Below are positions 58,093 to 63,724 of a stretch of DNA of 64,000 nucleotides, one piece after another. Positions within the stretch are counted from its first letter, which is position 1, and the number at the start of each line of letters is the position of its first letter. This DNA is from a virus (Duplodnaviria > Caudoviricetes): positions 1 to 64,000 of the IMG/VR virus record IMGVR_UViG_3300042885_000751; one strand, written 5' to 3'. The position numbers and the translations under genes are program-made. The notes below the pieces were generated by a model. The model saw nothing but the letters and a program-made list of their open reading frames with translations. It made no database searches and had not been told where the DNA came from.

Positions 58093-59283
58093 TTAAATTT
58101 CTAACTTAATAACTTTTCCCGGTAAATCTGTATTCATACCAGATTGCTCAGACAGCACCCACAATATAGGAGCTTTTGGCTTTACACTTGTACAGCATTC
58201 ACCGTCAGTAAAATACACTAAGCTAGTATACTTTCTTATATTTTCATTATAATATTCAAGGACGGGATCAAATTCTGTCCCACCTCTTCCATATATCTCA
58301 ATTTCATTTTTACCTTTATAAGGCTCTATGCTTTTGATAGCAGTATCACATTGTACTATGGTAATATCAACACCTTGTTTATAGATGTGTAATATCTCAT
58401 TCATAAACTCATGTAATTCTTGATCACATACGGATCCTGAAGTATCAATAGCCAACAACATATGTTGTTTCATTTTAATTTTAAGACCGGGATTCTCAGA
58501 ATATCTTCTATTCTCTTTTCTCCTTATCTTTTTAGTATACACTTTTGATGACACACCAGTAAATCTTCTGATATATCCTTTCCAATCAAATTTAGCAGGC
58601 TTGATTTCTTCCATTTCAAGTAAACCCTCAATTTCTCCAGGGATATTACCTCTTTTCTTTTCAGTCATTTCCTTAGCATCATTGAGAATCTTATTTAATT
58701 GTTTCTCAATTAGCTTTTGCTCAGCTTCAGTCATGTCTTCAAAATCAGCCCAAGTAGGATGATCACTGGCCATTTCATCTCCAGCATCCATTTGATCAGC
58801 TAACTTATCAAAATTATCATCACCACTTGTGCCACTTTTGTCTTTATCTTCTTTAGCCTGTTGTAGTTTATCATAATAATATCTACAACCTGCTTTTCTA
58901 TCAAGATTTAAATCAGGATAATCATCTATATTAATACCACCTTCTGGTAGTAATTCATCTAAGATATACTGATTAATCTCCATATCCATAGCAATATTAG
59001 CTAATCTCTTATCACTAAACTTAAAATACATAGTAAGATGACCAAAAGCTATATGAAGTAATTCATGCTTAAGTAAACCTAATCTATGATCTTCAGATAA
59101 ACTTGTCCAGAAATCTTCATTAATTGTAAGTTGATAATTAATATTATTTTTACTTACACCAGCAGTAGGAACTATTTTATTATTCCATACTTTATTTAAC
59201 ATGATTAAAAAGAACCCATAATAGGGCTCCTTTAACATCAAGTCTTTACTGGTTTTTGCTAAACTATCTTCTCTATTTTTCAT
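58093..59283 (-). CDS. Putative metallopeptidase + vWA domain protein (DUF2201-like)
   Basis: LKHELLH (HExxH), NIAMD.EIN; MIDAS-like IDTSGS, GRGGTEF, YFTDG. Confidence 0.85.
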   Translation of the reverse strand: MKNREDSLAKTSKDLMLKEPYYGFFLIMLNKVWNNKIVPTAGVSKNNINYQLTINEDFWTSLSEDHRLGLLKHELLHIAFGHLTMYFKFSDKRLANIAMDMEINQYILDELLPEGGINIDDYPDLNLDRKAGCRYYYDKLQQAKEDKDKSGTSGDDNFDKLADQMDAGDEMASDHPTWADFEDMTEAEQKLIEKQLNKILNDAKEMTEKKRGNIPGEIEGLLEMEEIKPAKFDWKGYIRRFTGVSSKVYTKKIRRKENRRYSENPGLKIKMKQHMLLAIDTSGSVCDQELHEFMNEILHIYKQGVDITIVQCDTAIKSIEPYKGKNEIEIYGRGGTEFDPVLEYYNENIRKYTSLVYFTDGECCTSVKPKAPILWVLSEQSGMNTDLPGKVIKLEI

Positions 59284-59680
59284 TTTTCAATGTTATTGAG
59301 TAATTTAATTTATTAATTGGATAACCCCAGTTTGACATTGCAGTTTTTAATTCTTCAACATGAATTTTTAAATAGTAATCCATAATTTCAGGTTCTACTG
59401 CTGCAGTAATTAAGGTATTAACAATTTGTGCTGCACTTAACTTATACTCACTTTGAATACCTAATTCACTGATTTTTTCAAAAGCATTAGGTATATTTTC
59501 ACGCCAATAACTTTCAGTTTTTAAACTCATACCATAAAATATGATTAACCATCCTTCAGATGCATCAATATCACAATTATTTAGTATTTCATTTGCAACA
59601 ACATGATTCTCTTTATCAGGAGAATTATACATTTCATATATACTTTCAACACTCTCTCTATTCAGTACTACTTTTTCCAT
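59273..59680 (-). CDS. Hypothetical protein
   Basis: 135 aa; overlaps the vWA gene start; motif shared with 54507-55760. Confidence 0.65.
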   Translation of the reverse strand: MEKVVLNRESVESIYEMYNSPDKENHVVANEILNNCDIDASEGWLIIFYGMSLKTESYWRENIPNAFEKISELGIQSEYKLSAAQIVNTLITAAVEPEIMDYYLKIHVEELKTAMSNWGYPINKLNYSITLKNEK

Positions 59681-59692
59681 TAGTTTTCTGTT

Positions 59693-60088
59693 TTAATATA
59701 ATTTACCTGTTTCTTTTTCATACTTCATTTGCCATTCAGATGCTTTTGCTAAATCATATTGGTGACGATAAAAATCTGTTGCAAGTAATAAAAGTGATTC
59801 TTGATATACTTCTTTTGCTACATACATTTTAGGCCAACTTACTAGTATGCTTTCTAAATTTTTTTTAACATCATGACTTTCATTAATCCATTTTTCATAT
59901 ATGCCGTAATGACCATGAAAATCTACAGGAAAAGTCATAATAAAACCATAAGCATCTTTATTATAATTTGTGTTTTCTTTTACAAAAATTGGTACTTCAT
60001 CAAGAGGTTTTTGCCAACCTAATTCTGTCATTATAACATCAATCTTAGGTGTAGCATATACTTTTTGTGTAAATGCATTTTCTTCCAT
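59693..60088 (-). CDS. Hypothetical protein
   Basis: 131 aa; coupled to the upstream ORF by TAATG. Confidence 0.65.
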   Translation of the reverse strand: MEENAFTQKVYATPKIDVIMTELGWQKPLDEVPIFVKENTNYNKDAYGFIMTFPVDFHGHYGIYEKWINESHDVKKNLESILVSWPKMYVAKEVYQESLLLLATDFYRHQYDLAKASEWQMKYEKETGKLY

Positions 60089-60225
60089 TAGTCTTTAATT
60101 TTAGTTTTTATTTTATTAATCCATTCAGGAAAAGCCATAAACCAAAGAGCATACAAACCCATGCATGTTAAAAGTAATAAACTGATTCCTAGTATAACCA
60201 ATACTATTATTCCAATAATCTTCAT
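60088..60225 (-). CDS. Small single-pass membrane protein, 45 aa
   Basis: Manual translation MKIIGIIVLVILGISLLLLTCMGLYALWFMAFPEWINKIKTKIKD*; TAATG overlaps at both ends. Confidence 0.75.
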   Translation of the reverse strand: MKIIGIIVLVILGISLLLLTCMGLYALWFMAFPEWINKIKTKIKD

Positions 60226-60572
60226 TAGTCTTCAATTTTTAAAGTTTTTATTGCCCATTCTTTAGGTTTACCTGATGATATCATATCAACCCATTCTTTA
60301 GCAGTAGGAATATAGTTATTACAATCCTCTTTTACATGTTGTTCTCCAACATATCTTGTATATACAGTTTTACCATCTGAATTTATAAATGATGCTCCAA
60401 ATACTTTTTCACATTCAAATATACCTTCACTGTGGTGACGGAACATTCTGTGTTTACTATGACCTATCCAAGCTTTAGTTTCATCAAACCAGTTGTGAAT
60501 TGCCTCATAATCAGATATTTGTCCTCCAAATTTCTTTACTGAGCTTTTACAATGTTGTAAGGGGTGTGCCAT
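60225..60572 (-). CDS. DUF6915-like protein
   Basis: MAHP..H.KSSVKKFGG...DY..IH.WFDETK...HR..RHHSEGIFECE..FG...R.VGEQHV.ED. Confidence 0.75.
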   Translation of the reverse strand: MAHPLQHCKSSVKKFGGQISDYEAIHNWFDETKAWIGHSKHRMFRHHSEGIFECEKVFGASFINSDGKTVYTRYVGEQHVKEDCNNYIPTAKEWVDMISSGKPKEWAIKTLKIED

Positions 60573-61158
60573 TTTTTGTGTTATTATAGACAGTTTCTAT
60601 CCATTTTAGAAAATCTGCTAAGGGTAAATCACTTTTTGCTCTATTGCAGATTTTACAACAACTGACAGTGTTATCAAGAGTGTATCCTTTTTGAGAGTTT
60701 ACTCTGTCAATACCATTATACATTACAGGTATACCGGCTCTAACAGCTTTTGTAGTAGAATTTAATATCTGATAAACAGCAAAAGGTTCTACTTTACAGT
60801 AAATACAGTTCTTACTAAGAAGCTTTTTAAACTCATCAAATGTCAAGTCAAAAGATAAACCTCTTTCTCGAGCATGTTTTTTATAAGAGTAAAGTAATGC
60901 ATTATAGCTAGTGTCTTTATTCCGTTTACCTATAAGCTTATTTGTTCTGCAGGGAGTTTTTCCACAACAAATTGAATTACCATTTCTGATATTAGTCAGT
61001 TGTACTTTTAAAAGTTTTTTACATCTGCATTGCACAAGCACTAGTCTTTTGTTTCCGGTACTAACACCTGCTTCACCTTGATAAGTAAAGAAAGTTGCTT
61101 TTTCTGTTGATGTGTAGATAACCTGTCCAGGTTCATAATTTAGTTTATATTTTTCCAT
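60547..61158 (-). CDS. Free-standing HNH-family (His-Me finger) homing endonuclease
   Basis: N-terminal CRC...GNSICCG; C-terminal CIYC...NGIDRVNSQKGY..DNTVSCCKICN.AK. Confidence 0.8.
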   Translation of the reverse strand: MEKYKLNYEPGQVIYTSTEKATFFTYQGEAGVSTGNKRLVLVQCRCKKLLKVQLTNIRNGNSICCGKTPCRTNKLIGKRNKDTSYNALLYSYKKHARERGLSFDLTFDEFKKLLSKNCIYCKVEPFAVYQILNSTTKAVRAGIPVMYNGIDRVNSQKGYTLDNTVSCCKICNRAKSDLPLADFLKWIETVYNNTKNGTPLTTL

Positions 61159-61276
61159 AAGATTTAGTATTGTACATTACAAATATACAATAATAAATCT
61201 TATAATGTATGTAATCTTCCCATGTTCCTCCCCACCTTTTTGCAGCAGATTTGGCATGCATTATTGGATGACTCAT
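61145..61276 (-). pseudogene. Orphan 5' fragment of a DUF6915-like gene
   Basis: MSHPIMHAKSAAKRWGGTWEDYIH aligns with MAHPLQHCKSSVKKFGGQISDYEAIH (60572), then runs into unrelated AT-rich sequence and stops after 43 aa. Confidence 0.8.
61180..61187 (-). promoter_or_regulatory. TAnnTTTG promoter element for the HNH cassette
   Basis: TATATTTG on the - strand, 21 nt before the HNH ATG. Confidence 0.6.
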
Positions 61277-61277
61277 T

Positions 61278-61682
61278 TTATTTAATGTATTTTTTAATAA
61301 GTTCTATTATACATGTTTCTTCAGCTATTTTTCTATTAGAATAGGAAAAACTTTTTATTACATTTTCTTCATCAAAAGAAATAGTAAATCCAAATTCTGT
61401 TTTTCCAACTTGTTGTATTGAAATTAACCAATCTGTTTTTTCATCAAACCAATTAAATACAAAAGGTCTAAGTGCCGCAACACAAGATTTTTCAGTTGTA
61501 TTTTCTAACTTGTCAATAATTTCATTTGTTATGTATCTTGAATACCAGCCAACATGAGCATCTTTAATATACAACATAAGGCTCATTCCATCATAGCCTA
61601 AATCTTTTAATTGTTTTGAAAACTCATAATCAAGATATCCAGTATCAATTTCCATTTTTTCTATTTCTTGTTTTTTATTCAT
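61278..61682 (-). CDS. Hypothetical protein
   Basis: 134 aa; YEFSKQLKDLGYD N-terminal motif; TAATG coupling. Confidence 0.65.
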   Translation of the reverse strand: MNKKQEIEKMEIDTGYLDYEFSKQLKDLGYDGMSLMLYIKDAHVGWYSRYITNEIIDKLENTTEKSCVAALRPFVFNWFDEKTDWLISIQQVGKTEFGFTISFDEENVIKSFSYSNRKIAEETCIIELIKKYIK

Positions 61683-62074
61683 TATTTCTTATTTTTATCT
61701 TTTAAATTACCTTCATGATGATAATCTTCATACTCAGTTACTCTGACACTATTATTAATTGTATATGTACCAAGTTCTACATCAATATAAACATAACCAC
61801 GACCACCTTCATCATTCCACCAGTCTTCTATATCATCTAATAACATCTCTTGACAGTAATCTTCAATTAAAGTACTTAATCCACTATCAATATCATTTAA
61901 TAAGTATTCTTGATCCCAATTTTCTAAATCATAATAACCTATATCTGGATCTTGAGTAGCATGAACATATTCAATTGCTCCACTATCTCCAGCACCTTCA
62001 TAATGTACTACAACTTTTTTAATACCATGATTAACTAAGCCAAACATTATTTTTTCTAGTCTATTTTCATCCAT
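61682..62074 (-). CDS. DUF6878-like protein
   Basis: GI..V.V.YEGAGDSGAIE...DWWNDEGG.G motifs. Confidence 0.7.
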   Translation of the reverse strand: MDENRLEKIMFGLVNHGIKKVVVHYEGAGDSGAIEYVHATQDPDIGYYDLENWDQEYLLNDIDSGLSTLIEDYCQEMLLDDIEDWWNDEGGRGYVYIDVELGTYTINNSVRVTEYEDYHHEGNLKDKNKK

Positions 62075-62083
62075 AACTTTTTA

Positions 62084-62503
62084 TTATTTAAACTTATAAA
62101 ATTTACCTAATATATTACCGTTTAAATATCTATCAGACTCAAGTACTCCTAATACAAATTGATGTTTAGTTTCCTGGTATGATAATTCTAATTTAGTAGT
62201 ACATATCATTAGTATATCTCTTTTAATTTTTACATTATCTTTGTGTGCTTTTTTCAGTACTTCATTGCTACTGTAATAATTTTGATAAGTAGCTTTTCTT
62301 ACTCTTTTATATGTCTTCAATCTCTTATCAGTTGGCATAGCCTTCTTACTCAGTTTTGTTTTAATATCTGCATAAAAATTCTTTTTACCAATATAACTAA
62401 TTGATTTTCCATCTATTATTGCAGTCATATTATAAATAAAACCTATTGCATTTTCAGGAATCATATCTTCGGTAAAAATTTTACCTTTATATATCCAACT
62501 CAT
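62084..62503 (-). CDS. GIY-YIG-like nuclease
   Basis: GFIY...YIGKK...YYSSN...R.IL...LSY.E...YLN.NI. Confidence 0.7.
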   Translation of the reverse strand: MSWIYKGKIFTEDMIPENAIGFIYNMTAIIDGKSISYIGKKNFYADIKTKLSKKAMPTDKRLKTYKRVRKATYQNYYSSNEVLKKAHKDNVKIKRDILMICTTKLELSYQETKHQFVLGVLESDRYLNGNILGKFYKFK

Positions 62504-62514
62504 AATTTTAAAAT

Positions 62515-62748
62515 TTAAGCATCACCTTGTGGTATAATACTGCTACGTTCTTGTATAAATTTACCTGAGAATACCTCAGTTAATGTTTCTTTTACATTGA
62601 TACCACCTTCTCTTTCAATAGTCTCTATCAATAATACTACTGCATGTATAAGATGTGCAGGAGTAACTCCACTTATCTTTAAATTTGTAGTAAACTTTTC
62701 TGGTGCCTCTTTATCAAACTCATAATTTATTTTAATCTTACCTTTCAT
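62515..62748 (-). CDS. Hypothetical protein
   Basis: 77 aa; overlaps the primase stop. Confidence 0.55.
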   Translation of the reverse strand: MKGKIKINYEFDKEAPEKFTTNLKISGVTPAHLIHAVVLLIETIEREGGINVKETLTEVFSGKFIQERSSIIPQGDA

Positions 62749-63724
62749 ATAATGTTTTATTAAGTAATAATAATACTTCTTCTTTTACTTTTTCAATACC
62801 GTGCACTTTAATAGCATCTGACACATCTTTCTCCATATCAAGAATAATAAAATCAAGATTATATCTTTCTTTATATTTTTTCATAGAATTAATACCTGCT
62901 TCATCATTATCAAATAGTACACATATCTTTTTATATTTTTCTTTAAGTTTATTTATGCTCTGCTCTTTAATCATAGTGTTTTCACTATCCGGAGCAATAC
63001 ACTCTATATCCTTAAAGCCAAGCTTATTAAAAGCCATTATATCTTTCAATGAAGAAGTAATAACTAAATAATCTACTGTAAGTGATAGTTGTTGTGATCC
63101 TTGTATATGATTAGCTAACTTTAAGAATTTTTTATTCATATTCTTAGGCTGATAAATCTTATACAATGTACCATCTTTTTTAAAATAGCCATACAGATTT
63201 AAGCCTGTAATAATAATTTCAGATGTAGTACCATTAAGTTCAAGTCTGGTCATCTTATAATATTCTAATGCAGATACATTATATGCTTCTAGCATTTTAG
63301 AACCAATATGATATTGTCCCCAGTATTTCTGATCAAAGTTGGACCAATGCCTAATAGTATAATCAGTTACTTTATAATTTTCATAAGTTTTAATTTCAGG
63401 AGCTTTATAAGGTTTATGATCATCTAAGTATTTAACATAGTCATTAACTATTTTATAAGAAACTTCTCCTCTATCTTTAATACCAAATATATATTGTACT
63501 AAAGCTATAGAATCTCCCTGATAACCTGATGAAAAATCTTTAAACTTATATGTCATTGTTGCAGCATCCATATAAATAATCATTGATGGAGTCTTTTCAG
63601 TTTTAAATACAGATTTAATCTTTATCTGCTGTCCGTCTAATTGTTCAGTAAGATTTAAATAATTCTCAAAGATCCAGATTGTTGGTACATCTTGGAATCT
63701 AATCACATTTTTAGTTGAAATCAT
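62738..63724 (-). CDS. DNA primase (DnaG-like TOPRIM)
   Basis: EKTPS and FKDFSSG..GD.I N-domain; LVITSSLKD, LFDNDEAG, KDVSD. Confidence 0.8.
   Translation of the reverse strand: MISTKNVIRFQDVPTIWIFENYLNLTEQLDGQQIKIKSVFKTEKTPSMIIYMDAATMTYKFKDFSSGYQGDSIALVQYIFGIKDRGEVSYKIVNDYVKYLDDHKPYKAPEIKTYENYKVTDYTIRHWSNFDQKYWGQYHIGSKMLEAYNVSALEYYKMTRLELNGTTSEIIITGLNLYGYFKKDGTLYKIYQPKNMNKKFLKLANHIQGSQQLSLTVDYLVITSSLKDIMAFNKLGFKDIECIAPDSENTMIKEQSINKLKEKYKKICVLFDNDEAGINSMKKYKERYNLDFIILDMEKDVSDAIKVHGIEKVKEEVLLLLNKTLYER

What the first reader, a model, noticed from the sequence alone, without database searches (positions are those of the whole stretch)
60225..61276. HNH cassette that split a gene and supplied a replacement 5' end
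Seen: order on the - strand is orphan N-terminus (MSHPIMHAKSAAKRWGGTWEDYIH, coupled to the upstream stop), TATATTTG promoter, HNH gene, then a complete DUF6915-like gene with a divergent N-terminus (MAHPLQHCKSSVKKFGGQISDY) overlapping the HNH stop by 26 nt. I see no intron core. Inference: splicing-free homing in which the element inserts near codon 24 and repairs the host gene with a recoded, cleavage-resistant start plus its own promoter. Similar partial-gene duplication is known for fungal mitochondrial homing endonucleases.
Basis: partly seen in the sequence, partly recalled or inferred. Interest (0 to 1): 0.7.

Follow-up and report, generated by a model that had tools for sequence, protein, structure and literature searches.

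The report
Endonuclease cassette replaces a gene's start
A selfish nuclease gene has landed inside the first 25 or so codons of a lake-phage gene and keeps that gene whole by bringing a substitute gene start with it, an intron-free trick so far described for fungal mitochondria rather than phages.

Summary
On the - strand lie an upstream gene, a 23-codon orphan DUF6915 start, a 49-nt leader, a 203-aa HNH gene and a complete DUF6915 gene overlapping the HNH end by 26 nt.

Relatives settle the reading. HNH-free L001 matches the window up to orphan codon 23 and again from codon 28 (97-98% nt). Only the roughly 716 nt between differ. A second phage lineage (L093) carries the same cassette: HNH 94% aa, replacement start 96% nt. 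Its orphan and gene body are different, and they equal the intact gene of its own HNH-free relatives (66/66 nt).

The nuclease is a PacI-like HNH under purifying selection (dN/dS about 0.2). Diverged relatives (44-49% aa identity) always sit before a DUF6915 gene. Orphans of 3-28 codons accompany 20 of 25 HNH-bearing loci and 1 of 84 HNH-free loci.

No intron was found. Cleavage, immunity of the new start and promoter activity are untested.

The closest precedent is fungal mitochondrial endonuclease ORFs that carry a replacement gene 3' end (PMC3630166). I rate this a new variant of a known kind.

The parts
61278..61682 (-). Upstream 134-aa gene (U134). Native context, not part of the cassette. 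Its stop is coupled to the orphan start (TAA-A-ATG).
   Evidence: ORF. It has no Pfam, PHROG or NCBIfam family. It is 396/405 nt identical to the HNH-free relative L001.
61208..61276 (-). Orphan native 5' end of the DUF6915 gene, codons 1-23. The open frame runs on through the leader to a stop at 61145 (43 aa).
   Evidence: Pfam DUF6915 profile positions 1-25, E 2.8e-6. 23/23 aa and 62/66 nt (codons 1-22) identical to the start of L001's intact gene. Only 37/65 nt identical to the replacement start of the same window.
61159..61207 (-). Cassette leader. The left junction lies between 61211 and 61207. It holds TATATTTG (61180-61187) and an imperfect palindrome (61169-61190). Presumed promoter or operator.
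   Evidence: Absent from L001 and present in L093 (alignment A1). Conserved in 16 cassette contexts whose HNH proteins are only 44-49% identical to the window's (A5; A4). Unique in the window. The sigma-70 scan found no site here. Function not shown.
60547..61158 (-). 203-aa PacI-like HNH (His-Me finger) endonuclease gene, the presumed homing endonuclease.
   Evidence: PHROG endonuclease VII / HNH families, E 1.6e-14 to 6.4e-13. Family profile against PDB: R.PacI 3ldy_A, E 8.4e-5. AF2 model pLDDT 81.5. Foldseek top hit PacI, E 2e-4, prob 1.00. dN/dS 0.19-0.24 against the L093 and L113 copies. Single copy in the 73.9-kb record.
60492..60572 (-). Replacement 5' end, codons 1-27 of the working DUF6915 gene, carried by the cassette. 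Its first 26 nt overlap the HNH ORF.
   Evidence: 78/81 nt identical to L093's cassette copy and 76/81 to the HNH-free allele of L029, but 41/81 to the native L001 start. Contigs of other alleles in four runs break off exactly at 60491 (loose ends).
60225..60491 (-). Native body of the DUF6915 gene, codons 28-115 plus stop. Together with the replacement start it forms the intact 115-aa gene (60225-60572).
   Evidence: Codons 28-92 are 190/195 nt identical to L001 and 150/195 to L093. The whole gene hits Pfam DUF6915, E 1e-39. The last 72 nt resemble L013 (67/72) more than L001 (56/66), a second and separate mosaic joint.

Best explanation
This is a free-standing homing-endonuclease cassette of about 716 nt (window about 61207 to 60492, - strand). 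It is inserted inside the 5' end of a phage DUF6915 gene.

The cassette has three parts: a conserved leader (presumed promoter), a PacI-like HNH nuclease gene, and a foreign copy of codons 1-27 of the target gene.

Likely course of events (inferred):
1. During mixed infection the nuclease cuts HNH-free alleles near codons 22-28.
2. The break is repaired by copying from the HNH-bearing genome.
3. The right-hand joint forms by homology in the invariant TGGTTTGATGAAACTAA stretch (codons 28-33).
4. The left-hand end keeps the recipient's own first 22-23 codons. It joins by very short or imperfect homology (GAAGATTAC at the joint).
5. The native start is therefore stranded as an orphan, and the gene is read from the imported start. 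No splicing is needed.

Across the wider HNH family the same process leaves orphans of 3-28 codons and sometimes drags in an extra gene. This fits one-sided, partly illegitimate break repair. Once an orphan exists it can serve as the left homology arm, which makes the cassette self-contained within one gene.

Shown here: the insertion polymorphism, the exact joints, the mosaic ancestry, the nuclease fold and its purifying selection.

Inferred: cleavage, its position, immunity of the imported start, and promoter activity.
For: 1. Empty and filled sites. L001 equals the window to codon 23 and from codon 28 on: U134 97.8%, orphan 93.9%, body 97.4% nt. Only the cassette is extra, and 12 nt (codons 24-27) are converted.

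2. Same cassette, other background. L093/L113 carry leader+HNH at 94.0% nt and the replacement start at 96.3%. Their orphan is only 69% and their body 76.9% identical to the window's. L093's orphan (66/66 nt) and body (99.2%) equal its HNH-free relative L128. 14 of 15 such relatives share the 22-aa start.

3. The left joint follows GAAGATTAC in both lineages.

4. Family-wide pattern. Every HNH locus that has downstream DNA has a DUF6915 gene directly after the HNH (32 loci L093-L125 apart from L117, whose contig ends; some are duplicate fetches). Orphan-like starts occur in 20 of 25 distinct HNH-adjacent loci and in 1 of 84 HNH-free loci.

5. The HNH is optional. It is adjacent in 3 of the 80 loci fetched with the DUF6915 gene alone (L049, L061, L064).

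6. The nuclease is credible. PacI profile hit E 8.4e-5 and fold hit E 2e-4. Two CxxC pairs and D151, R152, Y159, N163, N172 are invariant in 15 sequences. dN/dS is 0.19-0.24.

7. Codons 1-27 are nearly twice as diverse as codons 28-92 among 69 distinct alleles (0.281 against 0.155). 31 of 2346 pairs have a body at least 97% identical and a start at most 75% identical. Contigs of other alleles break at 60491.

8. One-sided homing with illegitimate joints at microhomology is documented for the T4 td intron (review PMC2988022, passage read).
Against: - No cleavage, target site or super-Mendelian inheritance has been shown. Everything rests on metagenome assemblies.
- Pfam and NCBIfam do not recognise the nuclease. 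It also lacks the canonical His base (D-R at 151-152), so activity is inferred from likeness to PacI.
- Only two backgrounds carry this exact cassette type. One old insertion followed by recombination in the flanks is not excluded.
- Five of 25 HNH-adjacent loci show no orphan. Four of these are free-standing after another gene's stop; the fifth lacks upstream DNA. Orphan lengths also vary. Insertion into the gene is therefore not obligatory, and orphans may be accidental scars rather than a designed feature.
- Eight of the 20 orphan calls are one lineage with only 'MAH'.
- The imported start is nearly a natural HNH-free allele (L029/L030), so nothing shows it was selected for resistance.
- The leader in the window lacks the upstream TTTG of the family consensus.
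Confidence: 0.75

Rival explanations
1. Ordinary phage mosaicism. Illegitimate recombination between diverged co-infecting phages swapped the gene start. The HNH is only a passenger that lives in the intergenic space before DUF6915, and it played no part in making the break.
For: This region is highly mosaic: the upstream genes differ between lineages, and there is a second joint near codon 92 of the window's gene. L073 has an orphan followed by a U134-like gene and no HNH. L109, L121 and L118 carry an extra gene between orphan and HNH. Four HNH loci are cleanly intergenic.
Against: Orphans go with the HNH: 20 of 25 against 1 of 84. The right joint is always at codon 27/28. The same left joint recurs in two backgrounds. 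The HNH is under purifying selection. Before its DUF6915 start, L073 has a stretch resembling the 3' end of the HNH-2 gene, which would fit HNH loss, but the match is weak and AT-rich.
Confidence: 0.12
2. The HNH and DUF6915 are a functional pair, for example a nuclease with its partner or immunity protein. The module is exchanged as a unit because start and nuclease must match, not because it is selfish.
For: Strict adjacency in all loci with downstream DNA. Each HNH type travels with its own class of DUF6915 start. The 83%-identical P0002 ends ..DGTPITTL, consistent with the same overlapping start, though this is inferred from the reading frame only.
Against: DUF6915 genes stand without the HNH in 77 of 80 loci fetched with the DUF gene. 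They also occur in Streptomyces, Bacillus, Gordonia and Sinorhizobium phages (127 records). Only 27 codons travel with the HNH; the body stays native.
Confidence: 0.08
3. The orphan is exon 1 of a gene interrupted by an intron, or by a bypassed or trans-spliced segment, that contains the HNH.
For: The orphan keeps its start codon and its coupling to the upstream gene. An earlier unverified note (e1-6218539) proposes a group I intron elsewhere in this phage.
Against: No Rfam family reaches its gathering score in 59000-63000 and none of the 5 weak matches is an intron. Only 49 nt of the cassette are non-coding. A complete gene with its own start follows. In relatives the orphans are cut to 3-16 codons or decayed (L049 MAHPNK*), which would destroy an exon.
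Confidence: 0.02
4. Assembly chimera of two co-occurring alleles.
For: Many alleles of this gene coexist in the same lakes.
Against: The same joints occur in contigs of separate runs, with 0 differences over the left joint and 1 over the right. 17 runs hold at least half of the sampled words. The identical HNH protein is on 17 contigs. L093 and L113 come from two collections.
Confidence: 0.01

Closest known systems
Mobile endonuclease ORFs (mORFs) of fungal mitochondria that carry a replacement gene end: Allomyces macrogynus atp6; Glomus sp. atp6, atp9, cox2, nad3 (PMC3630166, passages read; the Allomyces paper itself was not seen)
   Same: An endonuclease ORF sits inside a gene together with a foreign, diverged copy of the displaced gene end. 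The native end is left behind as an unused remnant that matches endonuclease-free relatives. No intron or intein is involved. The two copies differ strongly (63.5% nt in Glomus atp6; 57% here).
   Different: This case is the mirror image: the 5' end is replaced, not the 3' end. The element must therefore supply a start codon and probably a promoter, rather than an in-frame continuation. The nuclease is a separate ORF in another frame and a PacI-like HNH, not LAGLIDADG or GIY-YIG. The host is a bacteriophage, not an organelle.
Free-standing homing endonucleases of T4-type phages (seg and mob genes; 'intronless homing' with co-conversion of flanks; review PMC2988022, passages read)
   Same: An optional nuclease gene lies between or beside conserved genes. 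The inferred spread is by double-strand-break repair with co-conversion of neighbouring sequence. Four loci of this family are cleanly intergenic.
   Different: In the window the element lies inside the coding sequence and duplicates part of it. The word stem 'duplicat' does not occur in that review (0 occurrences).
Homing-endonuclease insertions that split phage genes (mobE in Aeromonas phage Aeh1 nrdA, mobA in T4 topoisomerase gene, seg in gene 43; same review)
   Same: A free-standing nuclease gene interrupts a coding region without an intron.
   Different: In those cases both gene pieces are kept and their products reassemble. Here the upstream piece is discarded and replaced by an imported copy, so the gene stays in one piece.
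One-sided homing with illegitimate double-strand-break repair (T4 td intron, Parker et al. 1999, known to me only through the review's passage)
   Same: Homology on one side only, with joints at microhomology and variable resection. This would explain orphans of 3-28 codons and the variable cargo on the left side.
   Different: That was a laboratory construct. Here the pattern is seen as natural products, and no experiment was done.
Restriction endonuclease R.PacI (PDB 3ldy)
   Same: Best sequence-profile and fold match. Shared G-x-D-R ... G-Y ... N ... C-x-I-C-N-R-x-K-S core with two zinc CxxC pairs. PacI is reported to use a tyrosine in place of the histidine base (PMC3384342, passage read).
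   Different: 19% identity. There is an extra N-terminal beta domain of about 60 residues. The genomic setting is that of a homing element, with no methylase partner seen in the neighbourhood.

Membership tests
HNH / His-Me finger nucleases (PacI-like branch) | beta-beta-alpha-metal fold | tested here: met
   AF2 model, pLDDT 81.5. Foldseek top hit R.PacI 3ldy_A, E 2e-4, prob 1.00, TM(target) 0.52; the next HNH hit is 4h9d at E 0.15. The family profile hits PacI at E 8.4e-5.
HNH / His-Me finger nucleases (PacI-like branch) | Two zinc-binding cysteine pairs flanking the active site | tested here: met
   C118, C121, C168 and C171 are invariant in 15 family members (A4). They align with PacI's CGYCG and CFICN.
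HNH / His-Me finger nucleases (PacI-like branch) | Catalytic general base (His, or Tyr in PacI) and metal-binding Asn | tested here: inconclusive
   There is no His at the usual place: D151-R152 are invariant. Y159, N163 and N172 are invariant and align with PacI's G-Y, N and C-N. The Tyr role in PacI is taken from PMC3384342. Which residue acts here is inference.
HNH / His-Me finger nucleases (PacI-like branch) | Match to a curated HNH family model | tested here: not met
   No Pfam HNH family at E up to 0.1; only DUF7200 at E 0.043, below its cut-off. No NCBIfam family at E up to 1. PHROG families named endonuclease VII / HNH do match.
Homing endonuclease gene (free-standing) | Presence/absence polymorphism at one site between otherwise near-identical genomes | tested here: met
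   Window against L001, L093 against L128-L142, L049 against L014.
Homing endonuclease gene (free-standing) | Same element in different genomic backgrounds | tested here: met
   Cassette 94-96% nt identical between the window and L093, while the flanks are 69-77% identical.
Homing endonuclease gene (free-standing) | Site-specific cleavage of the endonuclease-free allele and resistance of the carrier allele | not testable with these tools
   Needs the protein and a cleavage assay.
Group I (or II) intron | Conserved ribozyme core | tested here: not met
   An Rfam E-value scan of 59000-63000 gave 5 weak matches, none an intron and none near its gathering score. Only 49 nt of the cassette are non-coding.
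Intein | In-frame insertion with splicing blocks | tested here: not met
   The orphan frame ends at a stop (61145). The HNH is a separate ORF, and the gene restarts with its own ATG in another frame.
Fungal-mitochondrial type mORF with gene-end duplication | Endonuclease ORF plus a foreign copy of the displaced gene end plus a native remnant | tested here: met
   The arrangement is a mirror image (5' end).
Fungal-mitochondrial type mORF with gene-end duplication | Inserted end (and often the ORF) in phase with the host gene's upstream part | tested here: not met
   The imported piece is the start of the gene and the HNH is in another frame. I therefore file it as working like an mORF, not as a member.
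DUF6915 (PF21866) | Match above Pfam's gathering score | tested here: met
   Gene: 135.2 bits against 27. Orphan: 27.8 bits against 27.

The most novel reading that the evidence does not exclude
These PacI-like HNH genes are a family of 'exon-replacement' homing elements. Each carries a promoter, a nuclease and an immune copy of the first 27 codons of its target. It can therefore colonise a coding sequence with both homology arms inside one gene (orphan on the left, gene body on the right) and needs neither intron nor intein. Rival cassettes carrying different start alleles overwrite one another. The window's orphan belongs to the allele class that HNH-2 cassettes carry. This serial overwriting would drive the twofold excess diversity of DUF6915 codons 1-27. 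If true, it would be a third solution, besides introns and inteins, to the problem of living inside a gene, now seen in phages.
Probability: 0.45. Interest if true: 0.75.

Novelty: new variant of a known kind. Interest (0 to 1): 0.6.

Why it matters
Homing endonucleases are usually said to survive inside genes only by hiding in self-splicing introns or inteins, or else to stay between genes. Here a phage nuclease gene sits inside a coding sequence and keeps the gene whole by importing a substitute start.

This mirrors the 3'-end replacement known from fungal mitochondria. It suggests that end replacement is a general, independently evolved route.

The material is unusually clean and testable. 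Matched empty and filled alleles exist in three lineages. The joints are defined to within about 4 nt. There is a small nuclease to express, and a natural series of decaying orphans to compare.

It also offers an explanation for the sharp boundary between a hypervariable first 27 codons and a conserved remainder in a widespread phage protein of unknown function. And it adds a natural, apparently homing, relative to the rare PacI branch of HNH nucleases.

Tried and rejected
**Intron.** The Rfam E-value scan of 59000-63000 gave only 5 chance-level matches. Rejected.

**Cultured relatives.** blastn against 50,697 phage records matched only 179 nt of the gene body in 13 Bacillus phage records at 70-73%. 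No close isolate exists there.

**Promoter.**
- The sigma-70 scan found 22 sites against 21.5 expected, and none in the leader.
- TANNTTTG occurs 107 times against 114 expected.
- The leader motif and its 12-mers recur nowhere else in the window.
- So only conservation across cassettes speaks for a function.

**Expression and splicing.** The two RNA runs laid (X18, X22) gave contigs only on 60188-60491, the conserved gene body, with several differences, so probably from relatives. Nothing lay on the HNH, leader or orphan. The one joint listed (60377 to 60468 in DNA run X13, side 33) is unrelated to the cassette. This says nothing either way about transcription or splicing.

**Endo VII / F-CphI 'DHHRN' family.** Considered because of the PHROG label (abstract of PMC6083498 read). 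The invariant D-R in place of D-H and the PacI matches argue for the PacI branch. I made no direct comparison with F-CphI.

**Prior description.**
- 'homing endonuclease' + 'partial duplication' + 'bacteriophage': 3 papers, none relevant by title or abstract start.
- 'free-standing homing endonuclease' / 'intronless homing': 55 papers, 20 listed.
- 'DUF6915': 0 papers.
- 'crAss-like' + 'homing endonuclease' + 'HNH' + 'intron': 5 papers, 3 listed, none on this by title.
- These searches cover only the held open-access library. Supplements were not consulted.

**Sampling limit.** Only the best 80 of at least 591 DUF6915 loci in IMG/VR were examined. Rows were de-duplicated by exact local sequence before the 25/84 count. 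L117 (orphan and HNH, but the contig ends before the gene) is outside that count.
Full report
**What is in the window.**

On the - strand the order is as follows:
- a 134-aa gene (61278-61682);
- one base after its stop, an ATG at 61276 that opens a 43-codon frame;
- a 203-aa ORF (60547-61158);
- a 115-aa ORF (60225-60572) that overlaps the previous one by 26 nt.

Pfam places the 115-aa protein in DUF6915 (E 1e-39). It places residues 2-26 of the 43-codon frame on profile positions 1-25 of the same family (E 2.8e-6, just above the curated cut-off).

The middle ORF has no Pfam or NCBIfam family. It does match PHROG families named endonuclease VII and HNH endonuclease (E 1.6e-14 and 6.4e-13) and phage genes so annotated at up to 36% identity.

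An Rfam scan of 4 kb around the site found nothing resembling an intron. The window belongs to a 73.9-kb, roughly 63% complete virus record with one copy of this nuclease.

**The empty site.**

IMG/VR holds close relatives of the upstream gene (12 loci).
- In L001 that gene (396/405 nt identical) is followed, four bases after its stop codon, by an intact DUF6915 gene.
- The first 23 residues of that gene are the window's orphan, residue for residue. At the DNA level 62 of 66 nt match, and all four differences are synonymous.
- The DNA alignments (A1, A2) show the window and L001 running together up to ...GAAGATTACATA (codon 23, 61208). They part for the whole leader, HNH ORF and the first 27 codons of the working gene. 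They rejoin at TGGTTTGATGAAACTAA (codon 28, 60491) for 190 of 195 nt.
- The native codons 24-27 (AIEE) are replaced by the cassette's AIHN.
- The working start shares only 41 of 81 nt with L001's start.

The inserted unit is thus about 716 nt, 61207 to 60492.

**The same cassette elsewhere.**

A scan with the nuclease found one IMG/VR contig (L093), and a metagenome scan found a second record of that type (L113).
- Leader plus HNH are 94.0% identical to the window's, and the replacement start is 96.3% identical.
- The orphan is a different sequence (69%), the gene body differs (76.9%), and the upstream gene is only 30% identical at protein level to the window's DUF6878 gene (61682-62074). No U134 homologue is present there.
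- Fifteen HNH-free relatives of that second background (L128-L142) were then fetched with its upstream gene.
- 14 of the 15 begin their intact DUF6915 gene with the 22 residues of L093's orphan, and the fifteenth has 21 of 22.
- L128 matches L093's orphan at 66 of 66 nt and its gene body at 99.2%.
- In both lineages the left joint follows GAAGATTAC.

This is the classical signature of a mobile insertion: one element, two backgrounds, each with its own empty-site allele.

**The wider family.**

An alignment of four nucleases was used to scan IMG/VR and the JGI metagenomes. It gave 32 further loci, some of them duplicates of one contig, with nucleases 44-49% identical to the window's.
- Every one that has downstream DNA has a DUF6915 gene directly behind the HNH. 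L117's contig ends first.
- Upstream of a conserved leader, many have an orphan DUF6915 start placed exactly where the gene should begin after the preceding gene.

| Orphan length | Loci |
|---|---|
| 27-28 codons | L117, L120, L109, L121 |
| 16 | L061/L064 |
| 15 | L114/L115 |
| about 9 | L118, L119, L123 |
| 4-5, decayed | L049 |
| 3, weak | L101 group |
| none | L095, L110, L111, L112 |

(Table.)

- In L109/L121 and L118 an extra gene lies between orphan and HNH.
- After de-duplication, orphan-like starts accompany 20 of 25 HNH-adjacent loci against 1 of 84 HNH-free loci. Eight of the 20 are one lineage with only three codons, and L125 lacks upstream DNA.
- The exception, L073, has a 9-codon orphan, a U134-like gene and no HNH.
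- Among the 80 loci fetched with the DUF6915 gene alone, 3 carry the HNH, so it is optional.
- A third matched pair exists for the diverged cassette type: L014 (empty) and L049 (filled) are 100% identical over codons 28-92 and 60.5% over codons 1-27.

**The nuclease.**

- A profile of 15 family members hits the restriction enzyme PacI (E 8.4e-5). The alignment covers the C-x-x-C, G-x-D-R, G-Y, N and C-x-I-C-N-R-x-K-S elements.
- An AlphaFold model (pLDDT 81.5) has PacI as its only Foldseek hit below E 0.001 (E 2e-4).
- PacI is reported to have replaced the usual histidine base with a tyrosine (PMC3384342, passage read). Here D151, R152, Y159, N163, N172 and four cysteines are invariant.
- Between the window and the L093/L113 copies dN/dS is 0.19-0.24, so the protein has been kept working.

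**The leader.**

- The 49 nt before the HNH start are conserved across 16 cassette contexts, with consensus ..TTTG-N20-TAcATTTA..TAATGTA..AATTATAATCTTATG (A5). The proteins behind them have diverged to below 50% identity.
- The window's TATATTTG is the TAnnTTT(G/A) box of that consensus. Its upstream TTTG is missing because the joint with the orphan lies there.
- The motif occurs nowhere else in the window. Generic promoter scans are uninformative.
- I read the leader as the cassette's own promoter or operator. That is inference.

**Mechanism.**

- The right joint is always at the boundary between a variable start and the invariant codons 28-33.
- Among 69 distinct alleles, mean pairwise difference is 0.281 for codons 1-27 and 0.155 for codons 28-92. 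Codons 28, 30 and 35 do not vary at all.
- Contigs of other alleles in four runs break off at exactly 60491.
- The left joint varies between cassette types, both in orphan length and in how much donor DNA precedes the HNH.
- This is what one-sided, partly illegitimate double-strand-break repair produces, as described for the T4 td intron in the review PMC2988022. The broken gene's 3' part finds perfect homology. Its 5' part has only a diverged counterpart or none, and is joined after variable resection.
- For the window's cassette type, the identical joint in two backgrounds argues that the orphan-bearing form is itself transmissible, with the orphan serving as a short left arm.
- Cleavage near codons 22-28 and immunity of the imported start are predictions, not results.
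- The imported start is close to a natural HNH-free allele (L029/L030, 76/81 nt). It is a borrowed allele, not demonstrably 'recoded'.

**Comparison with what is known.**

- The nearest precedent is the mobile endonuclease ORFs of fungal mitochondria (Allomyces atp6; Glomus atp6, atp9, cox2, nad3). They carry a foreign copy of the gene's C-terminus and leave the native one as a silent remnant matching endonuclease-free relatives (PMC3630166, passages read).
- The phage case is the mirror image. It replaces the 5' end, so it needs its own start and probably its own promoter, and it uses a different nuclease family.
- Phage free-standing endonucleases are known to co-convert flanks and, rarely, to split genes into two working pieces (PMC2988022). 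That review does not mention duplication (0 occurrences of 'duplicat').
- My searches of the held library found no description of this arrangement in phages, and no paper naming DUF6915.

**Reality of the sequence.**

- Seventeen lake or freshwater runs hold at least half of the sampled words; six may be the source.
- Contigs from two other runs bridge the left joint with no difference and the right joint with one.
- The identical nuclease is recorded on 17 contigs, and an 83% variant (P0002) ends in a way consistent with the same overlapping start.

**Verdict.**

Its claims about resistance and the promoter are still open. It is a new variant of a known kind, moderately surprising and readily testable.

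Noticed in passing
window 62084-62503 (-): A SegE-type GIY-YIG endonuclease gene (Pfam E 3.8e-20) lies two genes upstream. Unlike the HNH, a homologue is present at the same place in nearly all relatives examined (55-98% aa identity). It therefore looks fixed rather than optional.
   Followed up: partly
window 60225-60296 (-): The last 72 nt of the DUF6915 gene resemble L013 (67/72) more than the otherwise closest relative L001 (56/66). This is a second recombination joint near codon 92, unrelated to the cassette.
   Followed up: partly
L073:3561-3995: A 9-codon orphan DUF6915 start is followed by a U134-like gene and then the intact gene, with no HNH. The stretch just before the intact start faintly resembles the 3' end of the HNH-2 gene, which could mean the nuclease was lost.
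   Followed up: partly
L109:1945-3479, L121, L118:2067-3464: In these cassettes an extra gene lies between the orphan and the HNH: a U134-like 127-aa gene in L109/L121, and an unrelated 117-aa gene in L118. The inserted block can therefore carry cargo.
   Followed up: partly
L029:3230-4000 and window 61278-61682: The U134-like small proteins (FDEPC... LYQQAFRWFRE... YEEAELxCLxKLIE motifs) form a family with tandem paralogues in some relatives (two copies in L029). They have no Pfam, PHROG or NCBIfam match.
   Followed up: no
L001:3202-3992 and other loci: The DUF6878 gene upstream (window 61682-62074) is present as two diverged tandem copies (about 42-45% aa identity) in several relatives, but once in the window.
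   Followed up: no
L120, L117 orphan ends: The two 27-codon orphans end in the 8-bp palindrome TTCATGAA right at the joint with the cassette. The nuclease's structural relative PacI is known to me (recall) to cut an 8-bp palindrome. This is a possible clue to the target of the HNH-2 type. Untested.
   Followed up: no
P0005: A gene caller fused a 4-codon orphan (MAHP), the translated leader and the HNH into one 223-aa 'protein' that its source names McrA. Annotated N-terminal extensions of such nucleases may hide orphans.
   Followed up: no
window 58093-59283 (-): The 396-aa protein matches a PHROG labelled 'HNH endonuclease' (E 7.5e-65). The PHROG label may be misleading.
   Followed up: no
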